Below are positions 27,119 to 57,084 of a DNA stretch of 64,000 nucleotides, one piece after another. The notes below the pieces were generated by a model, which was not told the DNA's origin, made no database searches, and worked only from the letters and a program-made list of their open reading frames with translations. The stretch is from Escherichia phage vB_EcoS_HZ_ZJUN2: sequence record PP216084; one strand, 5' to 3'. Positions within the stretch are counted from its first letter, which is position 1, and the number at the start of each line of letters is the position of its first letter. The position numbers were made by a program, and so were the translations under genes.

Positions 27119-27147
27119 TTGATAAAATTTTCTAATACTATTATAAT
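27119..27147 (+). promoter_or_regulatory. Sigma70-like promoter candidate TTGATA-17-TATAAT
   Basis: Hexamers at 27119-27124 and 27142-27147; upstream of pb9-like gene with AGAGGAGAAAT RBS. Confidence 0.4.
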
Positions 27148-27174
27148 ATTGTTATTAAAGAGGAGAAATTAACT

Positions 27175-27789
27175 ATGAGATTACCAGACCCATACACGAA
27201 TCCAGAACTTTCAGGATTAGGATTCGAAAGTGTTAACCTGATTGATAATGACCCAGTAATTCGTGATGAGTTACCAAATGGTAAAGTTAACGAAGTTAAG
27301 GTATCCGCTCAATACTGGGGTATAAATATTTCTTATCCAGAATTATTTCCAGATGAATATAGTGTTCTAGATGCTTTTATTCTAGAATACAAAAGGACTG
27401 GTGGTTATATAGATGTTATATTACCTCAATACGAAGCTTTTAGAGTTAGAGGTAATACTAGCCTAGTAAATATACCTGCTGGACAGAAGGGTTCTAATAT
27501 AACTATGGATACAAAAGGACTTCTCACAGGTATTCCAAAACCGGGGGATCTATTTAAGCTATCTAACCATCCAAAAGTATATAAAATAACATCATTCAAT
27601 AAATCAGGCAATACGTGGTCTATAAACTTATACCCTGATTTATTTATAACTACTACTGGGGCTGAGAAACCAGTGTTTAACGGAATACTATTTAGAACAA
27701 AACTCATGAATGGTGATGCTTTCGGATCTACATTAAATAATAACGGAACATATTCCGGCATCTCATTAAATTTACGGGAAAGTTTATGA
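27175..27789 (+). CDS. Distal tail protein pb9-like, 204 aa
   Basis: Position directly after tape measure; length equals recalled T5 pb9. Confidence 0.6.
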   Translation: MRLPDPYTNPELSGLGFESVNLIDNDPVIRDELPNGKVNEVKVSAQYWGINISYPELFPDEYSVLDAFILEYKRTGGYIDVILPQYEAFRVRGNTSLVNIPAGQKGSNITMDTKGLLTGIPKPGDLFKLSNHPKVYKITSFNKSGNTWSINLYPDLFITTTGAEKPVFNGILFRTKLMNGDAFGSTLNNNGTYSGISLNLRESL

Positions 27790-50799: not shown

Positions 50800-51329
50800 G
50801 AGTTTAGCTCCTCTAGTGCAGGATAATTAGATATATCAAAAATCTCTATAACAGCACGTTCTCCATGTAGATTAGTTCTCAGTATATTTGCTGAGTTTAC
50901 AGCTAATTCTAACTCTTCATACTTAAATCTGCCACCATTTTTAAGGTTGCCATTAGAGTCTCTTACCTGTACCCTCCATTTTTGTTTTTCAATATCCCAA
51001 GCAACTCCTAAGTACCCAGATTTACTACATGCTGTTTTATTTCTACTATTTTCCTGGGCTGTAGCATCTCTTAGATTACACCACCTATTATCAAAGGGTA
51101 TTCTGTTTACATGGTCTACTTTTTCAGGCAGTGTATTCTCCATAAATAGAAAAGCCATACGATGAGCTTTGTAATCCTTTCCATCTATGCCAATAATTAT
51201 ATAGTCATTAGAGTCTTTTCTAGTTACTATACTCCCAGCTTTCTGATTGCCTCTAGATACTTTTCTAGTAAACTCCCCAGTTTCTGGGGAGTAATCAAAT
51301 AACTCTTTTAGCCTTTCCTGTGTTATCAT
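50796..51329 (-). CDS. HNH homing endonuclease with AP2 domain, 177 aa
   Basis: HNH_3-like DHVNRIPFDNRWCNL and AP2-like YLGVAWDIEKQKWRVQV; inserted between helicase and primase. Confidence 0.65.
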   Translation of the reverse strand: MITQERLKELFDYSPETGEFTRKVSRGNQKAGSIVTRKDSNDYIIIGIDGKDYKAHRMAFLFMENTLPEKVDHVNRIPFDNRWCNLRDATAQENSRNKTACSKSGYLGVAWDIEKQKWRVQVRDSNGNLKNGGRFKYEELELAVNSANILRTNLHGERAVIEIFDISNYPALEELNS

Positions 51330-52849
51330 ATATCGCTGGCCTGTTCACCTGTTGAATTTTCAGCTTTGTCTTTCTTAGCACGTTTAGGTTGAGCCGGCTT
51401 ATCCTTCTCAATAGGGATAACGAACTCAGCTTCCATTTGAGATATATCTTCCATTGCTAGGTTGGTAGTGTTATCCATTCGCAGAGTTTCCCAGTTCATT
51501 TTAGGCATAAACTTCACGCTATCAGAAGAACGAGTCTTAACGAAGTCAAACATAATAGCACCTTGACCATTATCAGCTTTTGCAGCATTAAGATTAGCAG
51601 CCATGTCTGCGGAATCAAGAATCCCCTTTGACATACGTGTTCTACCATCTTGATCGATCTGGTAAGGAGCTACACCAGCCACGTTATGTTTCTGGCAGAT
51701 AGATTTGAAAGACGAGCTAACAACCATCTGTTCTTTCCAGTCATACATATCAATGGTTTTAGAGTCTGGAAGTCGGGTTTGGTTAATATAGTCCAGTAAG
51801 GCTACTGTAACTTTATCTCCATATCTAGCAACTAATTTATTTAGTTCTACGTCAACTGTTGTAATAGACAGCTCAGGGTCATAAACAATAATCATAGGAG
51901 TATGTAGTTCATACCCTTCTATTAGCTTACTCTCCATATCGTAGAAATCACTCATCTTAGCCATTGTGTATTGTTTAACGAAGTTATCAAAAAGCTCTTC
52001 ACCACCATTAAACATTCTAGCTCTAGTTCTGGCTAATCTCAACAGAGCTGCACCTTCTAGAGTATTATTACGCATTGCTAGTGCTGATACACCTGCTAAC
52101 ATGGCTAGATTACGTCTAAATACTTCATGTTCTTTCATCTCAATTGAGAAGTATGGAGCAATATCTCCATTCAAATATTGCTGAACCTGTATGTTTGAAC
52201 AGATAATGGATTTACCAGTACCACGCCAACCACCAAGCAGTAACGTTTCTGTGCGAGCTAAACCAATTTGAGCGTCGAACTCATTACAAATACCAAGAGC
52301 GATTAAGTTCAGTTTGGTATCTTCTTCTCTCTGGAAAATACGCATGTTATCTGCGTTGAATACTTTTCCAGTATTCGTTACTTTCTCTTCTAATTTTAAG
52401 TGAAGGGAGGCAACTCGGTTGAGAATTTCTCCCTGATCCAGCATTGTTAAATCTTGAAGCACGTCTGTTTCTAGAAGCTTCAGGAATAGATCCTGCGTAT
52501 ATTCGGCTTCTAGGACTTCAAGTGCCTGTTCCATGCTCACTTCTGGAATTTGAGTGTTAGCTAAGACGACTAGAGCTTGAGAAAGGCGGGCGTTCCTATT
52601 AGCTTCAAGCATAAGTGCGTCAATGGACGGCATTGTGTTATATTTTTTATAATAATTCTGGACGGCTTGGTAAATTGAGGAGAAAGCGTCATTAAAATGA
52701 TCTTTATGCAGTTTTGAGAATGTTTCCAATGCTATTTGCTTCTGTTCTGAAGCAAGAAGCATCTTCAACACTACAGCTTGCACGTTAAACAAGGTCATTC
52801 TCCTTTGCACGCTTTCGTGCCTTCTAAATGCAAAAAGGGGAAGGAGCAT
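51326..52849 (-). CDS. Replicative DNA helicase, DnaB-like, 507 aa
   Basis: RecA-like core with Walker A GGWRGTGKS; true start possibly at internal Met18. Confidence 0.75.
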   Translation of the reverse strand: MLLPLFAFRRHESVQRRMTLFNVQAVVLKMLLASEQKQIALETFSKLHKDHFNDAFSSIYQAVQNYYKKYNTMPSIDALMLEANRNARLSQALVVLANTQIPEVSMEQALEVLEAEYTQDLFLKLLETDVLQDLTMLDQGEILNRVASLHLKLEEKVTNTGKVFNADNMRIFQREEDTKLNLIALGICNEFDAQIGLARTETLLLGGWRGTGKSIICSNIQVQQYLNGDIAPYFSIEMKEHEVFRRNLAMLAGVSALAMRNNTLEGAALLRLARTRARMFNGGEELFDNFVKQYTMAKMSDFYDMESKLIEGYELHTPMIIVYDPELSITTVDVELNKLVARYGDKVTVALLDYINQTRLPDSKTIDMYDWKEQMVVSSSFKSICQKHNVAGVAPYQIDQDGRTRMSKGILDSADMAANLNAAKADNGQGAIMFDFVKTRSSDSVKFMPKMNWETLRMDNTTNLAMEDISQMEAEFVIPIEKDKPAQPKRAKKDKAENSTGEQASDI

Positions 52850-52861
52850 AGCCCCCTCCCC
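52832..52861 (-). terminator. Imperfect GC hairpin plus U5 run, terminator candidate
   Basis: gggga-agg...cc-tcccc stem at 52837-52861 with A5 at 52832-52836 on plus strand. Confidence 0.4.
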
Positions 52862-52880
52862 TTAGGTTTAATTTACCAGA

Positions 52881-53648
52881 TTATTCAGCAGCCGCAGCTT
52901 TTGCATCCAGTTTAGCACGCTTAGCGGCACCATCATAGTCCTTAGCAACCAGACCACGACGAGACAGCATAGATTTAACACCACGCTCAGACTTACCAGT
53001 TTTCTCAGCGATCTCAGCAACAGTCATGTTAACCAGATCCAGACCTTCTAACAGATCTTCACGAGTTTTAGCACTTGAAGTTTCCTGTACCGGCATAGCA
53101 GCGATACGACCTTCACGAAGCAGGCTCAGAGCTTTACCACGGATCTGCTTAATATTGCGACCGAAGTGAGCAGCGATAGCTTCAATAGTAGCACCAGCAA
53201 CAACCTGATTAACAAAATCAGTTTCTTCATCCGGAGTGAAGGAACGAACAGCGGCAGCTTTTTCGGTTGGTTTAACAGAAGCGGTCATTTCCAGACTCAG
53301 GATCTTACCCTGTACCTGTTTAGCACCGAACTGACCACCAGCTACAGCAGCAGCGATTTCAGCATAGGTATACTGACCAGCATGAGCGTTCAGGAAATCA
53401 ACCAGCTCAGCTTCCTGCTCAGGAGTCCACGGGGATTTCTGTACTTCGTTAGCTTTCTGTACTTCAAAACCTTCTTTACGCAGTTTAGAGCCAACAGAGC
53501 GAGCAGTAACATCTTTGCCAGTTTCAGCAGCTAGTTCAGCAGCAATAGCAGCTACTTGTTCTTGAGAGATTACAGCAACACCCAGAGCAGTGGCTTTTGC
53601 TTTCAGAGACTCGGTTACACCTTCTACGTTCCAGTTCAGTTTAGACAT
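52881..53648 (-). CDS. Repeated-motif DNA-binding protein, 255 aa (possible D5-like)
   Basis: Four tandem copies of a ~30 aa unit of form EIAxxxGxxxxxxRxKL; size fits a ~29 kDa dsDNA-binding protein. Confidence 0.45.
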   Translation of the reverse strand: MSKLNWNVEGVTESLKAKATALGVAVISQEQVAAIAAELAAETGKDVTARSVGSKLRKEGFEVQKANEVQKSPWTPEQEAELVDFLNAHAGQYTYAEIAAAVAGGQFGAKQVQGKILSLEMTASVKPTEKAAAVRSFTPDEETDFVNQVVAGATIEAIAAHFGRNIKQIRGKALSLLREGRIAAMPVQETSSAKTREDLLEGLDLVNMTVAEIAEKTGKSERGVKSMLSRRGLVAKDYDGAAKRAKLDAKAAAAE

Positions 53649-54423
53649 TATTATTTTTCTCCAATAGTTCTTTAATCGACAGGATTTCTATCCCATTCGT
53701 TTCGGCTTTCTTATAAGATGAGGAAGAACGTTTTGATTCATCCTCACAGATTAGGTATTTGACGTCTTTGGTAACGGATTTCTTAACCGTATACCCTAGA
53801 CCTTCTAAATAGTTTGTTGCATCCGTTCTATTTGCAAAATCTTGCAAAGATCCGGTAATACATACCGCGATTCCATTTGGCTTGGCAACTAATTCATCCG
53901 TAGTGATAATATTAGCTTTAGTGCCCTTAATACCAGTTGAGAATTTCCACGGTAGTTCGATAACATCCTTGCCTTGTGGGGAATTTAGCCAGGCTTTGTA
54001 ATTTTCTCCAGCCTTGCCGTCAGCCTTCACATCATGGAAGCTAGTGCAATTTTGGGATAATTTCTTTGCTGCAACCTCTCCAATTAGAGGGATTCCTAAA
54101 GAACCGAGAACTGAACCAAAGTCAATGTCTCCGCGAACTTTAGTATTTAATTCGCTAATTAACTTAGCGGCAACCTTGCTACCCACGGCTCTAACCAAAT
54201 CTTCTTCGGTTAGGTAAAATAGTTCTGAAATCTTCGTCAGCTCCAGCTTCTCAATAGTTTTTGGGCCAAAGCCCTTTAACTTCATTTTTGAACAGAAGTT
54301 CTCAATTAACTTGCTTGATTGCGCTGGACAGTTGGACTTATTACGACAGAATAATTGTCCGTTGACAAGATCTAGCTTAGAACCACAAGAGGGACATTGT
54401 GTTGGAATTTCGATTTTCATCAA
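53641..54423 (-). CDS. ligB: NAD-dependent DNA ligase, C-terminal half (Zn finger, HhH, BRCT), 260 aa
   Basis: CPSCGS...CRNKSNC zinc finger, HhH GFGPKTIEKL, BRCT-like CITGSL...YLICED. Confidence 0.75.
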   Translation of the reverse strand: MMKIEIPTQCPSCGSKLDLVNGQLFCRNKSNCPAQSSKLIENFCSKMKLKGFGPKTIEKLELTKISELFYLTEEDLVRAVGSKVAAKLISELNTKVRGDIDFGSVLGSLGIPLIGEVAAKKLSQNCTSFHDVKADGKAGENYKAWLNSPQGKDVIELPWKFSTGIKGTKANIITTDELVAKPNGIAVCITGSLQDFANRTDATNYLEGLGYTVKKSVTKDVKYLICEDESKRSSSSYKKAETNGIEILSIKELLEKNNNV

Positions 54424-54450
54424 ATTTCTTCCTTATCAATTTATATAAAT

Positions 54451-54479
54451 ATTATAGCAAGTATTTAAGCATTTAGCAA
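54451..54479 (-). promoter_or_regulatory. T5-type early promoter (TTGCTA-17-TATAAT) in the ligase spacer
   Basis: Reverse complement; followed by leader ATTTATATAAATTGATAAGGAAG. Confidence 0.5.
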
Positions 54480-54622
54480 CTACAATTTTAATTAACTTTG
54501 CTTACCCTCGCCATAACTTTCTATCCCTCAACTGAATGATAATAGTATATACCTAAGCGGCGAAAATGTCAATAACCACTTTATAATTCCGATATGGTAG
54601 ATGGGTAGCAAAGGGTTATGTA

Positions 54623-55597
54623 TTAATCGTATACTCGCTCTACTATGCACGGGATTACACCACCAGCACGAATCACTCGAATCTGGCAACCGATCTCTAG
54701 ATCGAGAGAGTTAATATAATCAACGTTATTAAGAGTTGCTTTAACAATTGTAGCATCATCAATAATTACCGGTTCGAAATAACCAACTGGAGTTACTTTA
54801 CCAGAAGCCCCTACCTGCCATTCAACTTTAGTAAGAGTTGTAATCTCGCCTTCTTCATCCTCTTTAATGGCGAAGGCTCCACGAGGGAATTTATTAGTCC
54901 AGCCTTCACGGAAGAATTTGTTGTTGTCATTAATACGAACAACTTTACCGTCCGTCGGAATCCATTTAAAGAAGGAACGCACATTAACAACTGTTAAGAA
55001 GTTCTCATTCTCTAGCCAAAGCATATCTTTTAAGTATGCTTCTGTAATACCTACAGATTCAGCAGAACATTGGATACCATAAGCAACAAAGATTAAACCG
55101 CCTTCTCCAATGCGTTGTACGAAAGCATCACTATCTTTGAGGTTAATAGCACCAGAGGCAAAGTTACGTTTATTTTCTACTTCTTTTGTAATTAGAACTT
55201 CACCAGTGATTTGAGTAGGTACTTTTTGGGAAATCTTTTTAGGAATATTCAGCAATCTTACGTTGCTTGTGACATCATTCCCCAGAATACCATTACCACG
55301 AGTTAATGCTTGAACAAATTCACCGTTAATATATAATAGAGAAATTGCACAACCATCTAACTTATCAGTTTCTACCTGACCTAAAGGATTAAATGGTGGT
55401 TTATCCCCACGATTATAATAAACTTTCTGTAAAGAATACATACGGTACAGATGTGGAATATCTCCCTTAGGCCCGATCTCTTCTTCTAGTGGGAAGCGTT
55501 TTACCAGGCAATCATACTCCTCATCAGAGATTAAAGACATGCCTTGATAATATGCTTCTTGACAACGCTTAATAAAGCCTCTTACATTATTCATCAT
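54623..55597 (-). CDS. ligA: NAD-dependent DNA ligase, N-terminal adenylation and OB half, 324 aa
   Basis: Adenylation motif KLDG (TDKLDGCAIS), NAD-ligase domain order; separate ORF from the C-terminal half. Confidence 0.8.
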   Translation of the reverse strand: MMNNVRGFIKRCQEAYYQGMSLISDEEYDCLVKRFPLEEEIGPKGDIPHLYRMYSLQKVYYNRGDKPPFNPLGQVETDKLDGCAISLLYINGEFVQALTRGNGILGNDVTSNVRLLNIPKKISQKVPTQITGEVLITKEVENKRNFASGAINLKDSDAFVQRIGEGGLIFVAYGIQCSAESVGITEAYLKDMLWLENENFLTVVNVRSFFKWIPTDGKVVRINDNNKFFREGWTNKFPRGAFAIKEDEEGEITTLTKVEWQVGASGKVTPVGYFEPVIIDDATIVKATLNNVDYINSLDLEIGCQIRVIRAGGVIPCIVERVYD

Positions 55598-55787
55598 CGG
55601 CGATTTCCATCTTGAGTTCTTTATTATATTGTGTAACCATGTCCATCAAATCAGCAGATTCTTTCAGAAACGCATCTTTGTACACCTTTTGATTTACTGT
55701 GCCTATGCTATCTTGATAATTAATACGTGCTGTGGAAAGTAGATTAAGTTTTGCTTGAATCTTGGGAAGTGTTACTGTCATTGCCAT
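55587..55787 (-). CDS. Hypothetical protein, 66 aa
   Basis: ORF in track, start overlapping ligase gene. Confidence 0.4.
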   Translation of the reverse strand: MAMTVTLPKIQAKLNLLSTARINYQDSIGTVNQKVYKDAFLKESADLMDMVTQYNKELKMEIADDE

Positions 55788-56060
55788 TCACCGTACCTCA
55801 TATGCTTTAGGCTGTCTAGTGGATCCGTGCCATGTATAATTTTTGCAAAGATGCAAATATGTAGTTTTTACTAGCCTATCCGATAATGGAGAGTATATTT
55901 CAGCTATTAATACTTCTTTTTCGTAATAAAGTGAAATCAGTTTATACCCAGTTCTAGTTTTAGTATACTTTTCCCCATTAATCTTTTCCTCCCACATGAG
56001 TATGAGAGGCTGTCCGATATATGGAAAAGGTTTAAGTGTACTTATATTTATCTTTTTCAC
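55788..56060 (-). CDS. Hypothetical protein, 90 aa
   Basis: GTG start; downstream of promoter 56091-56119. Confidence 0.45.
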   Translation of the reverse strand: MKKINISTLKPFPYIGQPLILMWEEKINGEKYTKTRTGYKLISLYYEKEVLIAEIYSPLSDRLVKTTYLHLCKNYTWHGSTRQPKAYEVR

Positions 56061-56090
56061 TTTGCAACCCTCTCATTAATTTATATAAAT

Positions 56091-56119
56091 ATTATATAAC
56101 AAAACTGAGTTGAAAGCAA
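56091..56119 (-). promoter_or_regulatory. T5-type early promoter (TTGCTT-17-TATAAT)
   Basis: Reverse complement; conserved leader ATTTATATAAATTAATGAGAGGG. Confidence 0.5.
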
Positions 56120-56125
56120 ATACAT

Positions 56126-56437
56126 TTATTCTTTTTCCGCCAGGCGTTTAGCTTCTTTTTCTACTTCTAATAAAACCTCACTATTAGATAATATTTTAGT
56201 AAATGCCTTAAATAAATGAGATGTTGTTTCTAGAGTGTATGGCATACTGAATCCACTTTTTGTTGGAAACCATTCACCTTCTATATCTTGGAGCCAGTAC
56301 CTAATTCCTAAGTATAGATTCCCCCTAAACTCAGATACAGTTAGCCTAACCTGTTGGCCATCTTCTCTCTCCCAGATAACTATGGACTGATCATCTACAT
56401 GTCCAACATAATCCTGATTTACATTATCTCCTGACAT
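56126..56437 (-). CDS. PC4/Sub1-like ssDNA-binding protein, 103 aa
   Basis: VSEFRGNLYLGIRYW...GEWFPTKSGFSM resembles the PC4 core VxxFRGKxYxDIREYW...PGKKGISL. Confidence 0.55.
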   Translation of the reverse strand: MSGDNVNQDYVGHVDDQSIVIWEREDGQQVRLTVSEFRGNLYLGIRYWLQDIEGEWFPTKSGFSMPYTLETTSHLFKAFTKILSNSEVLLEVEKEAKRLAEKE

Positions 56438-57084
56438 TTTATTGCTCCCTGACTTAGGAGATATTCCTCTGCCTCCTCTGGTTGAATACTGAAAAACTCA
56501 GTAGAACCGTCAAATATTGACTCTGTAAATATCTGCATACTAGAAAAGAATTGATGGGCTTTATTTTCTAGGGTATATGCAGAGCCTTCATAAGAGTATA
56601 CCCCATATATACTCAGATCCACCAAATTAGAATCTTTTTTAATCTCTTGAAGTCTTCTATCTGGGTTTTTAGATGTTCCTATTTTTGTTCCTAGCTGCGG
56701 GCTATAAAATAGATACAAATAGCTTGTAGCCGCACAGATAGGGCAAGATCTTCTAGCATTTTTAATCTTATCCACGCTGCTAACCCATCTATGTCCTTCT
56801 ACACACTCGAACTCTGCTTGACTACGGGAATTAATATAGGGAGATATAAGTTTTATACCCCTACTGGCTAGCTGTTGGTTTATTTGCTCTACAGTAAGCT
56901 TAGCTTTATTACTACAATGTGGGCAACCACTACCCTTTCTTATATTATTTAGGTAAGCTTTCCATTGGTGGCCCTTTAAGCATTTAAACATGGCTGGTGT
57001 TCTTATGTTAACCCATTCACTTACTATACTAAAGCCTCGTGACTCTAATTCTTTATTTATTTGTTTTGCTGTTAACTTTTTCAC
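56419..57084 (-). CDS. Zinc-ribbon repeat protein with C-terminal GIY-YIG-like (T5orf172-type) domain, 221 aa
   Basis: Two repeats of CxxGHxW...CPxC; C-terminal SYLYLFYSPQLGTKIGTSKNPDRRLQE resembles GIY-YIG core. Confidence 0.45.
   Translation of the reverse strand: MKKLTAKQINKELESRGFSIVSEWVNIRTPAMFKCLKGHQWKAYLNNIRKGSGCPHCSNKAKLTVEQINQQLASRGIKLISPYINSRSQAEFECVEGHRWVSSVDKIKNARRSCPICAATSYLYLFYSPQLGTKIGTSKNPDRRLQEIKKDSNLVDLSIYGVYSYEGSAYTLENKAHQFFSSMQIFTESIFDGSTEFFSIQPEEAEEYLLSQGAIKCQEIM

What the first reader, a model, noticed from the sequence alone, without database searches (positions are those of the whole stretch)
53641..55597. NAD-dependent DNA ligase encoded as two separate genes with a promoter in the 200 bp spacer
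The adenylation/OB half (54623-55597) and the Zn-finger/HhH/BRCT half (53641-54423) are separate ORFs separated by a non-coding spacer that contains a full TTGCTA-17-TATAAT promoter (54451-54479). The two halves must assemble in trans, and the C-terminal half can be transcribed independently.
Basis: partly seen in the sequence, partly recalled or inferred. Interest (0 to 1): 0.45.

Follow-up and report, generated by a model that had tools for sequence, protein, structure and literature searches.

The report
Known split T5-type DNA ligase
This is the two-gene (LigA/LigB) NAD-dependent DNA ligase of T5-like phages, separated by two named T5 promoters; the sequence is as described, but the arrangement has been annotated since 2005 and a relative's two-subunit enzyme has a solved structure, so it is ordinary.

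Summary
On the minus strand, ligA (54623-55597; adenylation and OB domains) and ligB (53641-54420; Zn finger, HhH, BRCT) are separate genes. A 199-nt AT-rich spacer lies between them, with stop codons in all frames.

The window is a T5-like phage (Tequintavirus). The T5 RefSeq record annotates the same two genes. It also annotates two promoters in this spacer, P-K 28b and P-K 28a.

The cut falls exactly at the OB|Zn boundary (about E. coli LigA residues 393/400). Both halves are under strong purifying selection. PDB 9hu3, [quoted passage not shown] (released January 2026), is a 55-60% identical homologue.

Findings I did not see stated elsewhere:
- The tandem promoter pair in front of ligB, and a D5 gene immediately downstream (usually within 8 nt; 32 nt in Vibrio D252), are conserved in eight genera.
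- Relatives carry 0-3 extra genes after ligA, including a homing-endonuclease-like gene.
- Uncultured T5-like phages carry unsplit 555-586-aa versions. One has a consensus promoter inside the linker codons.

Verdict: a real feature, already known, low interest.

The parts
54623..55597 (-). [quoted passage not shown] It carries the domain Ia motif, the nucleotidyltransferase domain with KLDG (K79), and the OB fold. It is 324 aa from the first ATG; T5 annotates the second ATG at 55594.
   Evidence: ORF. Pfam aden and OB domains. phrog_3359, and positions 9-381 of the full-length phrog_3869. PDB 9hu3_A at E 1.3e-102, and residue 321 aligned to E. coli LigA 390. dN/dS 0.03-0.06.
54424..54622 (-). 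Non-coding ligA-ligB spacer: 199 nt, 30.7% GC, stops in all frames. It is almost entirely filled by the two promoters.
   Evidence: It differs from T5 at 1 of 199 bases while dS of the flanking genes is 0.12-0.19. Rfam finds nothing in it.
54518..54592 (-). Promoter equivalent to T5 'P-K 28b' (T5P36). The -35 TTGACA is at 54572-54567 and the -10 TATACT at 54549-54544. The inferred transcription start is about 54537.
   Evidence: Consensus scan, 11/12. T5 RefSeq feature mapped through alignment A2. TTGAC[ACG]-17-TATA[CA]T is present in all 8 genera.
54488..54514 (-). Eight-codon mini-ORF (MARVSKVN*) behind an SD-like GAGGGA in the P-K 28b leader. It is probably not a gene.
   Evidence: Sequence. 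It is conserved within T5/DT57C/bastian but not in KEY, My1 or River4.
54425..54499 (-). Promoter equivalent to T5 'P-K 28a' (T5P37). The -35 TTGCTA is at 54479-54474 and the extended -10 TGcTATAAT at 54459-54451. The inferred start is about 54444, leaving a 24-nt leader with the SD AAGGAAG.
   Evidence: TGnTATAATA is invariant in 8 genera. A 19-nt repeat of its -10 and discriminator lies at 56078-56096.
53641..54420 (-). ligB, the NAD-dependent DNA ligase subunit B. It carries a four-Cys Zn finger (C9, C12, C25, C31), the HhH domain and BRCT. It is 259 aa from the ATG.
   Evidence: phrog_3498, and positions 388-654 of phrog_3869. Residue 3 aligns to E. coli LigA 402, and 9hu3_B matches at E 2e-80. 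AF2 model pLDDT 85.7, with 9hu3_B then 2owo as top folds. dN/dS 0.09-0.17.
52881..53648 (-). D5 DNA-binding protein gene. Its start overlaps the ligB stop by 8 nt (ATGTCTAA). It is the second gene of the P-K 28b/a transcription unit.
   Evidence: In the relatives whose downstream gene was annotated as D5 or shown to be its homologue, D5 follows ligB (or the fused ligase) directly; in the others a gene of similar size occupies that position.
52835..52863 (-). Intrinsic-terminator-like hairpin 18 nt after D5 (13 pairs followed by a T run). It is the likely end of the ligB-D5 unit.
   Evidence: Terminators are annotated at the equivalent place in PR1 and KEY.
56091..56119 (-). Early-promoter-like site TTGCTT-17-TATAAT upstream of orf90, orf66 and ligA. 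It is the inferred promoter of the ligA unit and the likely counterpart of T5P35.
   Evidence: Sequence. It shares 19 nt with P-K 28a. T5 records annotate a promoter with 'repeat b' upstream of ligA. The link is inferred; I did not align the two directly.

Best explanation
The window comes from a T5-like phage (Tequintavirus, Demerecviridae). The feature is that family's well-known two-subunit NAD+-dependent DNA ligase.

LigA carries domain Ia, the adenylyltransferase domain and the OB fold. It should adenylate itself from NAD+. LigB carries the Zn finger, the HhH DNA-binding domain and BRCT. It supplies the DNA-clamping half that bacterial LigA-type enzymes need for nick sealing. The polypeptide is cut exactly at the flexible OB|Zn linker, and the two proteins assemble around nicked DNA as a heterodimer.

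The 199-nt spacer is not debris. It consists of two tandem sigma-70 early promoters, known in T5 as P-K 28b and P-K 28a. Together with any read-through from ligA, they drive a bicistronic ligB-D5 unit that ends at the hairpin after D5. ligA belongs to the upstream unit (promoter, orf90, orf66, ligA).

Shown here:
- the gene structure;
- homology to both chains of the solved heterodimer;
- near-identity to the annotated T5 promoters;
- conservation of the arrangement across the family;
- purifying selection on both halves.

Inferred:
- promoter activity in this particular phage;
- the extent of the transcription unit;
- subunit stoichiometry;
- the idea that the promoters' main client is D5.
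For: - **Identity of the locus.** The region is 97% identical to T5-like phages, which annotate ligase subunits A and B. It matches 446 records, 429 of them over most of the query. DT57C and T5 annotate the same genes.
- **Promoters.** The T5 RefSeq record places 'P-K 28b' and 'P-K 28a' in the spacer. The window's spacer matches T5's at 198 of 199 bases.
- **Solved homologue.** 9hu3 chains A and B match at E 1e-102 and 2e-80. They come from Providencia phage PR1. The entry is titled a heterodimeric DNA ligase on nicked DNA.
- **Clean cut.** LigA residue 321 aligns to E. coli LigA 390, and LigB residue 3 to 402. Against the full-length phage ligase profile, the halves cover positions 9-381 and 388-654 of 656.
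- **Conserved catalytic features.** KLDG, the Ia motif and the four Zn-finger cysteines are all present.
- **Selection.** dN/dS is 0.03-0.17 for both halves.
- **Family-wide split.** Every sampled T5-family record, down to 47% protein identity, shows the ligase in at least two pieces; every sampled phage ligase at 30% identity or less is one piece.
- **Conserved promoter pair.** It is present in eight genera. Of 27 promoter-element columns, 19 are invariant, against 14 of 183 other columns (Fisher p = 2e-12).
- **A truncated LigA-type enzyme.** It adenylates itself but cannot ligate (PMC1684257).
Against: - No experiment on this phage's proteins or transcripts exists in what I could read.
- I could not find the paper behind 9hu3. 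Heterodimer function rests on the PDB title and on homology.
- No terminator follows ligA in the window. ligB may therefore also be transcribed by read-through, so 'independent' transcription is additive rather than exclusive.
- Motif IV carries Arg where E. coli has Lys290. The Providencia phage PR1 subunit A (9hu3_A) also has Arg there, so it is probably tolerated.
Confidence: 0.92

Rival explanations
1. The split is a sequencing or assembly artefact, or a recent frameshift. The real gene would be one continuous ligase ORF.
For: Nothing found here supports it. One record, Salmonella phage GSW6, shows the ligase in three pieces, so artefactual extra breaks do occur.
Against: The spacer is 199 nt with stops in every frame, and the two genes are in different frames. 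The same architecture is present in hundreds of independently sequenced phages from several genera. The spacer is more conserved than synonymous sites. A heterodimer has been crystallised.
Confidence: 0.01
2. The spacer is the scar of a mobile element that split the gene: a group I intron, an intein, or a homing-endonuclease cassette. The promoters would be incidental.
For: The site just after ligA is a landing place for extra genes in relatives.
- Single small ORFs sit there in Salmonella phage bastian, Erwinia KEY and Proteus PM135.
- Two or three genes sit there in Vibrio phages.
- Klebsiella phage vB_Kpn24-P3 has a T5orf172/MUG113 endonuclease with treble-clef zinc fingers at this site.
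- That endonuclease is 34% identical to a gene elsewhere in the window.
Against: - Rfam finds no intron RNA in the spacer.
- The spacer holds no ORF longer than 8 codons.
- Neither half has extra residues or a Hint/intein domain.
- Apart from that one endonuclease, the intervening ORFs tested (from bastian, KEY, River4, D252 and Serratia Kamaji) show no endonuclease domains.
- The insertions are sporadic and always lie upstream of the conserved promoter pair, while the split and the promoters are family-wide. The insertions therefore look secondary.
Confidence: 0.07
3. LigB is not mainly a ligase subunit. It would be made from its own strong promoters, together with D5, as an independent DNA- or nick-binding factor, with ligase complementation a secondary role.
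For: ligB sits immediately upstream of D5 in all eight genera compared (overlapping it by 8 nt in the window), behind two strong promoters and apart from ligA. In PR1 a terminator is annotated between ligA and ligB. The title of 9hu3 mentions a 'phage nick sequence', which ties the enzyme to T5-type genome nicks.
Against: LigB keeps every LigA C-terminal module, in order. It co-crystallises with LigA on nicked DNA. Fused versions exist in related phages, so the two halves work as one enzyme. I found no evidence for a separate role.
Confidence: 0.05

Closest known systems
Bacteriophage T5 ligA/ligB (T5.116/T5.117; dnlj1/dnlj2), described with the T5 genome (Wang et al. 2005, Virology 332:45, as cited in PMC1684257)
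   Same: The two genes, the order, the split point and the downstream D5 gene are the same. The spacer matches at 198 of 199 bases, including the annotated promoters P-K 28b and P-K 28a. dN against T5 is 0.007-0.02.
   Different: The differences are minor. The window has two extra small ORFs (90 and 66 aa) between the upstream promoter and ligA. It also has a 221-aa endonuclease-like gene further upstream. T5 lacks all three.
Providencia phage PR1 heterodimeric NAD+ DNA ligase, PDB 9hu3 / 9i5i (released 2026-01-14)
   Same: It is a two-chain enzyme with the same domain split. Chain A matches over query residues 4-324 at E 1.3e-102. Chain B matches at E 2e-80 and 55% identity. The promoter pair upstream of ligB is also the same.
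   Different: It belongs to a different genus (Priunavirus). The PR1 record annotates a terminator right after ligA, which the window lacks. I could not read the publication.
Bacterial LigA (E. coli LigA, PDB 2owo)
   Same: The domain order is the same: Ia, NTase, OB, Zn, HhH, BRCT. The KxDG lysine, the four-Cys zinc finger and BRCT are all present.
   Different: E. coli LigA is one 671-aa chain. The phage enzyme is cut between about residues 393 and 400. It is also more compact, 583 aa in total, at roughly 25-30% identity.
Unsplit compact ligases of uncultured T5-like phages (P0154, P0162, P0173 and others; 555-586 aa)
   Same: They are 38-45% identical to LigA. Their length equals LigA plus LigB. 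The six whose contigs were read (P0154, P0162, P0173, P0176, P0183, P0186) are followed directly by a 237-253-aa gene, shown to be a D5 homologue for P0154 and P0173. Four contigs (P0154, P0162, P0185, P0186) also show DnaB downstream, and two of them primase.
   Different: Each is a single ORF with a 10-25-residue linker where T5 has a stop codon, the promoters and a start codon. All are known only from metagenomes.

Membership tests
NAD+-dependent DNA ligase (LigA family) | Nucleotidyltransferase domain with the KxDG adenylation lysine | tested here: met
   PF01653 at E 1.4e-23. KLDG at residues 79-82 aligns with E. coli K115-LDG.
NAD+-dependent DNA ligase (LigA family) | N-terminal domain Ia, the NAD+-specific YY/YH...SDxEYD motif | tested here: met
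   'AYYQGMSLISDEEYDCL' aligns with the Ia region of the PR1 subunit A (PDB 9hu3_A), and more weakly with that of the ligase in 1v9p. That this motif specifies NAD+ rests on established knowledge of LigA, not on a test made here.
NAD+-dependent DNA ligase (LigA family) | OB-fold domain after the NTase domain | tested here: met
   PF03120 at E 3.3e-22, residues 253-322. It aligns to E. coli residues 284-390.
NAD+-dependent DNA ligase (LigA family) | Four-Cys zinc finger, HhH domain and BRCT domain | tested here: met
   C9, C12, C25 and C31 are invariant in 34 homologues. BRCT scores 32.7 bits against a cut-off of 21.3. HhH scores below its cut-off by sequence (24.5 against 27). The AF2 model nevertheless matches 9hu3_B and 2owo.
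NAD+-dependent DNA ligase (LigA family) | All domains on one polypeptide | tested here: not met
   There are two genes, a 199-nt spacer and different reading frames. This is what separates the T5 type from canonical LigA.
NAD+-dependent DNA ligase (LigA family) | NAD+-dependent nick sealing | not testable with these tools
   This needs an enzyme assay. It is inferred from homology and from the title of 9hu3.
T5-type heterodimeric ligase (LigA and LigB subunits) | Split at the OB|Zn junction, with both halves homologous to the solved heterodimer | tested here: met
   The cut falls between positions 381 and 388 of the 656-position full-length profile.
T5-type heterodimeric ligase (LigA and LigB subunits) | Gene order: ligA, 0-3 ORFs, two promoters, ligB, D5 | tested here: met
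   Window. Relatives in eight genera.
T5-type heterodimeric ligase (LigA and LigB subunits) | Physical association of the two subunits on nicked DNA | not testable with these tools
   Shown only for the PR1 homologue, by the PDB entry title.
T5 early promoters P-K 28b / P-K 28a | Sequence identity with the features annotated in T5 | tested here: met
   The NC_005859 features at 66366-66440 and 66459-66533 map to window 54592-54518 and 54499-54425. The spacer has one mismatch, which lies between the core elements.
T5 early promoters P-K 28b / P-K 28a | Sigma-70 architecture, plus the ATATT discriminator reported for T5 early promoters (PMC7472727) | tested here: met
   TTGACA-17-TATACT and TTGCTA-17-TGcTATAAT are both present. 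P-K 28a reads TATAATATT. P-K 28b reads TATACTATT, a partial match.
T5 early promoters P-K 28b / P-K 28a | Transcription initiation in vitro or in vivo | not testable with these tools
   The promoter names follow the functionally mapped T5 promoters of Gentz and Bujard 1985 (cited in PMC7472727). That paper is not held in the library.
Intron-, intein- or homing-endonuclease-interrupted gene | Structured intron RNA, an intein (Hint) domain, or an endonuclease ORF at the junction | tested here: not met
   Rfam finds nothing in the spacer at E up to 1. No ORF there exceeds 8 codons. Neither half has extra domains or residues.

The most novel reading that the evidence does not exclude
The conserved entity may be the promoter position rather than the split. 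On this reading, T5-like phages need strong early promoters for the abundant DNA-binding protein D5. Those promoters sit at the one place in the upstream ligase gene that tolerates arbitrary sequence, the OB-Zn linker. Most lineages then broke the gene there, which also uncouples the dosage of the DNA-binding half (LigB) from the catalytic half.

Three observations support this:
- The promoter pair and an adjoining D5 gene are conserved in eight genera.
- Unsplit ligases followed directly by a D5-sized gene (a confirmed D5 homologue in two) exist in uncultured T5-like phages.
- One unsplit gene (P0154, seen on three contigs) carries TTGAAT-18-TGcTATAATATATT inside its linker codons.

Two observations weaken it. 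Three other unsplit genes examined lack a convincing linker promoter. My tree cannot say how many fission or fusion events occurred, or in which direction.
Probability: 0.2. Interest if true: 0.45.

Novelty: already known. Interest (0 to 1): 0.15.

Why it matters
As a discovery it matters little. The split T5 ligase has been annotated since 2005, its spacer promoters carry names from the classical T5 promoter work, and a heterodimer structure on nicked DNA is in the PDB.

It remains a clean natural example of gene fission at a domain linker that leaves the enzyme working. T5 packages a nicked genome, so how its own ligase is dosed and regulated is a fair biological question.

The small additions made here give a cheap way to test why the gene is split. 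They are the family-wide conservation of the promoter pair and the adjoining D5 gene, the insertion hot-spot after ligA, and the unsplit relatives.

Tried and rejected
- **Rfam.** A permissive scan of 53400-55800 found nothing in the spacer.
- **Leader RNA structure.** The P-K 28b leader folds into a hairpin that pairs the mini-ORF with the P-K 28a -10 region (z = -3.2). An alignment fold across eight genera gave zero conserved pairs, so I dropped it as a family-wide element.
- **Endonuclease domains in intervening ORFs.** Pfam and PHROGs searches of the ORFs between ligA and ligB in relatives found none. The exception is the Klebsiella vB_Kpn24-P3 gene.
- **Literature.** Four searches for the 9hu3 paper or any paper on a split or heterodimeric ligase found nothing beyond PMC1684257. 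A search for 'K28a/K28b' gave only unrelated hits. Gentz and Bujard 1985 is not held.
- **Fused relatives in IMG/VR.** Three single-protein scans found nothing, and a fourth found only split relatives.
- **Phylogeny.** NJ with 100 bootstraps separates the compact T5-type clade from long bacterial-type ligases in 100 of 100 replicates. It gives no support for one fission event: split forms were monophyletic in 0 of 100.
- **Linker promoters in fused genes.** Testing whether they are general gave one perfect case, two one-mismatch cases at chance frequency, and one with none.
- **Shuffled-alignment control.** The run timed out. I replaced it with a Fisher test.
Full report
**What is in the sequence.**

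On the minus strand there are two ORFs. The first, 54623-55597, encodes 324 aa. The second, 53641-54423, encodes 260 aa from a TTG, or 259 aa from the ATG at 54420.

Pfam finds the NAD-ligase adenylation domain (E 1.4e-23) and OB domain (3.3e-22) in the first ORF. It finds BRCT (8.8e-08), with weaker HhH hits, in the second.

The 199 nt between them are 30.7% GC, against 38-39% in the genes. They contain stops in all three frames, and the two genes lie in different frames. No single frameshift can join them.

A better match lies upstream in the same spacer: TTGACA-17-TATACT at 54572..54544, 11 of 12 positions. Promoter-like matches in general are at chance frequency in this region, 15 found against 12.4 expected. 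The consensus match alone proves nothing.

**Where the window comes from, and what is already annotated.**

The region is 97% identical to T5-like phages. It matches 446 phage records, and 429 of them cover most of the query. [quoted passage not shown] DT57C and T5 show the same gene order: ligA, ligB, D5, then the helicase D6.

The T5 RefSeq record annotates two promoters in the ligA-ligB spacer, named 'P-K 28b' and 'P-K 28a'. A second T5 record calls them putative early promoters T5P36 and T5P37. The window's spacer differs from T5's at one base. The named features map to window 54592-54518 and 54499-54425, which are my two consensus hits.

[quoted passage not shown] It also shows that a LigA-type enzyme truncated after the OB domain adenylates itself but cannot ligate (PMC1684257). 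Other papers list the two subunits as routine annotation (PMC3632103, PMC4319617).

**The halves form one enzyme.**

A search of PDB sequences finds a two-chain entry, 9hu3 (also 9i5i). Chain A, 'DNA ligase (NAD(+))', matches LigA at E 1.3e-102. Chain B, 'DNA ligase subunit B', matches LigB at E 2e-80.

Chain B is 100% identical to the ligB product of Providencia phage vB_PreS_PR1, a T5-like phage.

An AlphaFold model of the window's LigB (pLDDT 85.7) finds 9hu3_B as its best fold match. The entry title is 'PR1 phage heterodimeric DNA ligase in complex with 21-mer nicked DNA containing phage nick sequence', released 2026-01-14. E. coli LigA on nicked DNA (2owo) follows as the fourth match. I could not find the associated paper.

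**Exact split point and integrity.**

LigA residue 321 aligns with E. coli LigA residue 390. LigB residue 3 aligns with residue 402. The cut therefore lies in the short linker between the OB fold and the zinc finger, and only about six linker residues are unaccounted for.

PHROGs gives the same picture. LigA covers positions 9-381, and LigB positions 388-654, of a 656-position full-length phage ligase profile. Each half also has its own stand-alone family.

The functional motifs are in place:
- The KLDG adenylation motif (K79) is present.
- The domain Ia motif is present.
- The four zinc-finger cysteines are invariant in 34 homologues.

Both genes are under strong purifying selection. dN/dS is 0.03-0.06 for ligA and 0.09-0.17 for ligB, measured against T5, DT57C and bastian. 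This rules out an artefact or a pseudogene.

**The spacer is a pair of conserved promoters feeding ligB and D5.**

I aligned the 210 nt upstream of ligB from eight genera: the window, Erwinia KEY, Klebsiella KpGranit, Pectobacterium My1, Providencia PR1, Proteus PM135, and Vibrio River4 and D252.

- All eight have TTGAC[ACG]-17-TATA[CA]T.
- A second promoter follows 59-69 nt later, with an invariant extended -10, TGnTATAATA.
- That -10 ends 26-31 nt before the ligB start.
- 19 of 27 promoter-element columns are invariant, against 14 of 183 other columns (Fisher p = 2e-12).

Within the T5 group the spacer is far more conserved than synonymous sites of the flanking genes. It diverges 0.5-3%, against dS of 0.12-0.55. 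That fits two roughly 70-nt promoters filling nearly all of it.

ligB overlaps the D5 start by 8 nt in the window. In all eight genera compared, the next gene (annotated D5 in five of them) follows within 8 nt in seven and 32 nt in Vibrio D252. A terminator-like hairpin follows D5 at 52863-52835.

No terminator separates ligA from the promoters in the window, although one is annotated there in PR1. My reading is as follows. ligA is the last gene of an upstream unit, and ligB-D5 is a unit with its own two strong early promoters plus read-through. The transcript starts (about 54537 and 54444) and the operon extent are inferred, not shown.

**No intron or endonuclease remnant here, but the site is an insertion hot-spot in relatives.**

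Rfam finds nothing in the spacer. The longest ORF in it is an 8-codon mini-ORF.

In relatives, extra genes sit directly after ligA and always upstream of the promoter pair:
- one small ORF in Salmonella phage bastian, Erwinia KEY and Proteus PM135;
- two in Vibrio D252, and three in River4, including a DprA-like protein;
- a 232-aa T5orf172/MUG113 endonuclease with treble-clef zinc fingers in Klebsiella phage vB_Kpn24-P3.

That endonuclease is 34% identical (E 7e-45) to the window's own ORF at 56419-57084, which is absent from T5 and DT57C. Because these insertions are sporadic while the split and the promoters are family-wide, I treat them as secondary.

**How widespread the split is, and its unsplit relatives.**

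Among isolated phages, every sampled T5-family record down to 47% identity (Vibrio phages) shows the ligase in at least two pieces. Every sampled more distant phage ligase, at 30% identity or less, is one piece.

The 120 best LigB homologues in the large protein collection are mostly stand-alone proteins of 247-263 aa; two shorter entries (214 and 190 aa) are partial.

A search of 50%-identity cluster representatives with LigA finds about 54 stand-alone LigA-type clusters. It also finds about 14 clusters of compact single-chain ligases of 555-586 aa, which is the sum of the two halves, at 38-45% identity.

These come from metagenomes. Their nearest isolates are the split Demerecviridae enzymes, at about 40% identity.

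On the six contigs that extend far enough, a 237-253-aa gene follows the fused ligase directly. For P0154 and P0173 it is a D5 homologue, 37-38% identical to the window's D5. Four contigs also show DnaB downstream, two of them followed by primase, and one by PolA. One such protein occurs on three contigs from two data sources.

A neighbour-joining tree separates this compact clade from long bacterial-type ligases in 100 of 100 bootstraps. It cannot separate split from fused forms (0 of 100). The number and direction of fission or fusion events is therefore open.

**An anecdote that fits a promoter-first reading.**

In the fused gene of P0154, the OB-Zn linker codons read TTGAAT-18-TGcTATAATATATT. 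That is a perfect extended -10, plus the ATATT discriminator reported for T5 early promoters (PMC7472727). The sequence is identical on a second contig from an independent data source.

Only two TGNTATAATA sites occur in that 11.7-kb locus, and 0.39 are expected. The other one is intergenic.

Three other fused genes do not show this convincingly. Their one-mismatch versions occur at chance frequency. I record it as a lead, not a finding.

**Verdict.**

The feature is already known: split T5 LigA/LigB, promoters P-K 28b and P-K 28a, and a solved heterodimer. I therefore score interest low.

What remains open is why the gene is split and whether the promoters chiefly serve D5.

Noticed in passing
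window 56419-57084 (-): A 221-aa ORF with two treble-clef zinc fingers (DUF4379/CapR) and a MUG113/T5orf172 domain, a homing-endonuclease-like architecture. It lies between the homologues of T5.114 and T5.115 and is absent from T5 and DT57C. It is 34% identical (E 7e-45) to the endonuclease found between ligA and ligB in Klebsiella phage vB_Kpn24-P3.
   Followed up: partly
window 55587-56060 (-): Two small ORFs of 90 and 66 aa (phrog_35018 and phrog_8267, function unknown) lie between an early-promoter-like site (56119-56091) and ligA. The second overlaps the ligA start. T5 has neither, and DT57C has only the 66-aa one.
   Followed up: partly
window 54424-54622: The non-coding spacer diverges 0.5-3% from T5, DT57C and bastian, while synonymous divergence of the flanking genes is 0.12-0.55. 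That is 10-20 times slower than neutral. Two adjoining promoters probably explain most of it, but the stretch between them is conserved too.
   Followed up: partly
window 54415-54540 (-): The RNA from the upstream promoter to ligB folds into a long hairpin (-26.1 kcal/mol, z = -3.2). It pairs the mini-ORF region with the -10 region of the downstream promoter. It is not conserved across genera; the alignment fold gave no pairs.
   Followed up: yes
L023 5952-5986 and L024 4685-4719 (uncultured T5-like phage; fused ligase P0154): A consensus extended -10 promoter, TTGAAT-18-TGcTATAATATATT, is encoded inside the OB-Zn linker of an unsplit ligase gene, exactly where T5 is split. Three other fused genes lack a convincing equivalent.
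   Followed up: partly
L006 2469-3672; L007 2457-2917; L002 1793-1987; L003 1743-2069; L013 1670-2284: Relatives carry one to three extra genes between ligA and the promoter pair. They are mostly of unknown function, with one DprA-like protein in Vibrio phage River4. The site behaves as a hot-spot for accessory genes.
   Followed up: partly
window 27119-27190 (+): A strong promoter match, TTGATA-17-TATAAT, is followed by ATTAAAGAGGAGAAATTAACTATGAGA. From memory, this is identical to the 'RBSII' ribosome-binding region of pQE/pDS expression vectors. I did not verify that with any tool.
   Followed up: no
Salmonella phage GSW6, NC_111398.1 10829-12783: This record shows the ligase in three pieces, with three 'NAD-dependent DNA ligase' CDS. 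It may be an extra frameshift or a sequencing error in one half.
   Followed up: no
window 52835-52863 (-): The terminator-like hairpin after D5 overlaps the longest-ORF start of the downstream DnaB-like helicase gene (51326-52849). The annotated helicase start may be too far upstream.
   Followed up: no
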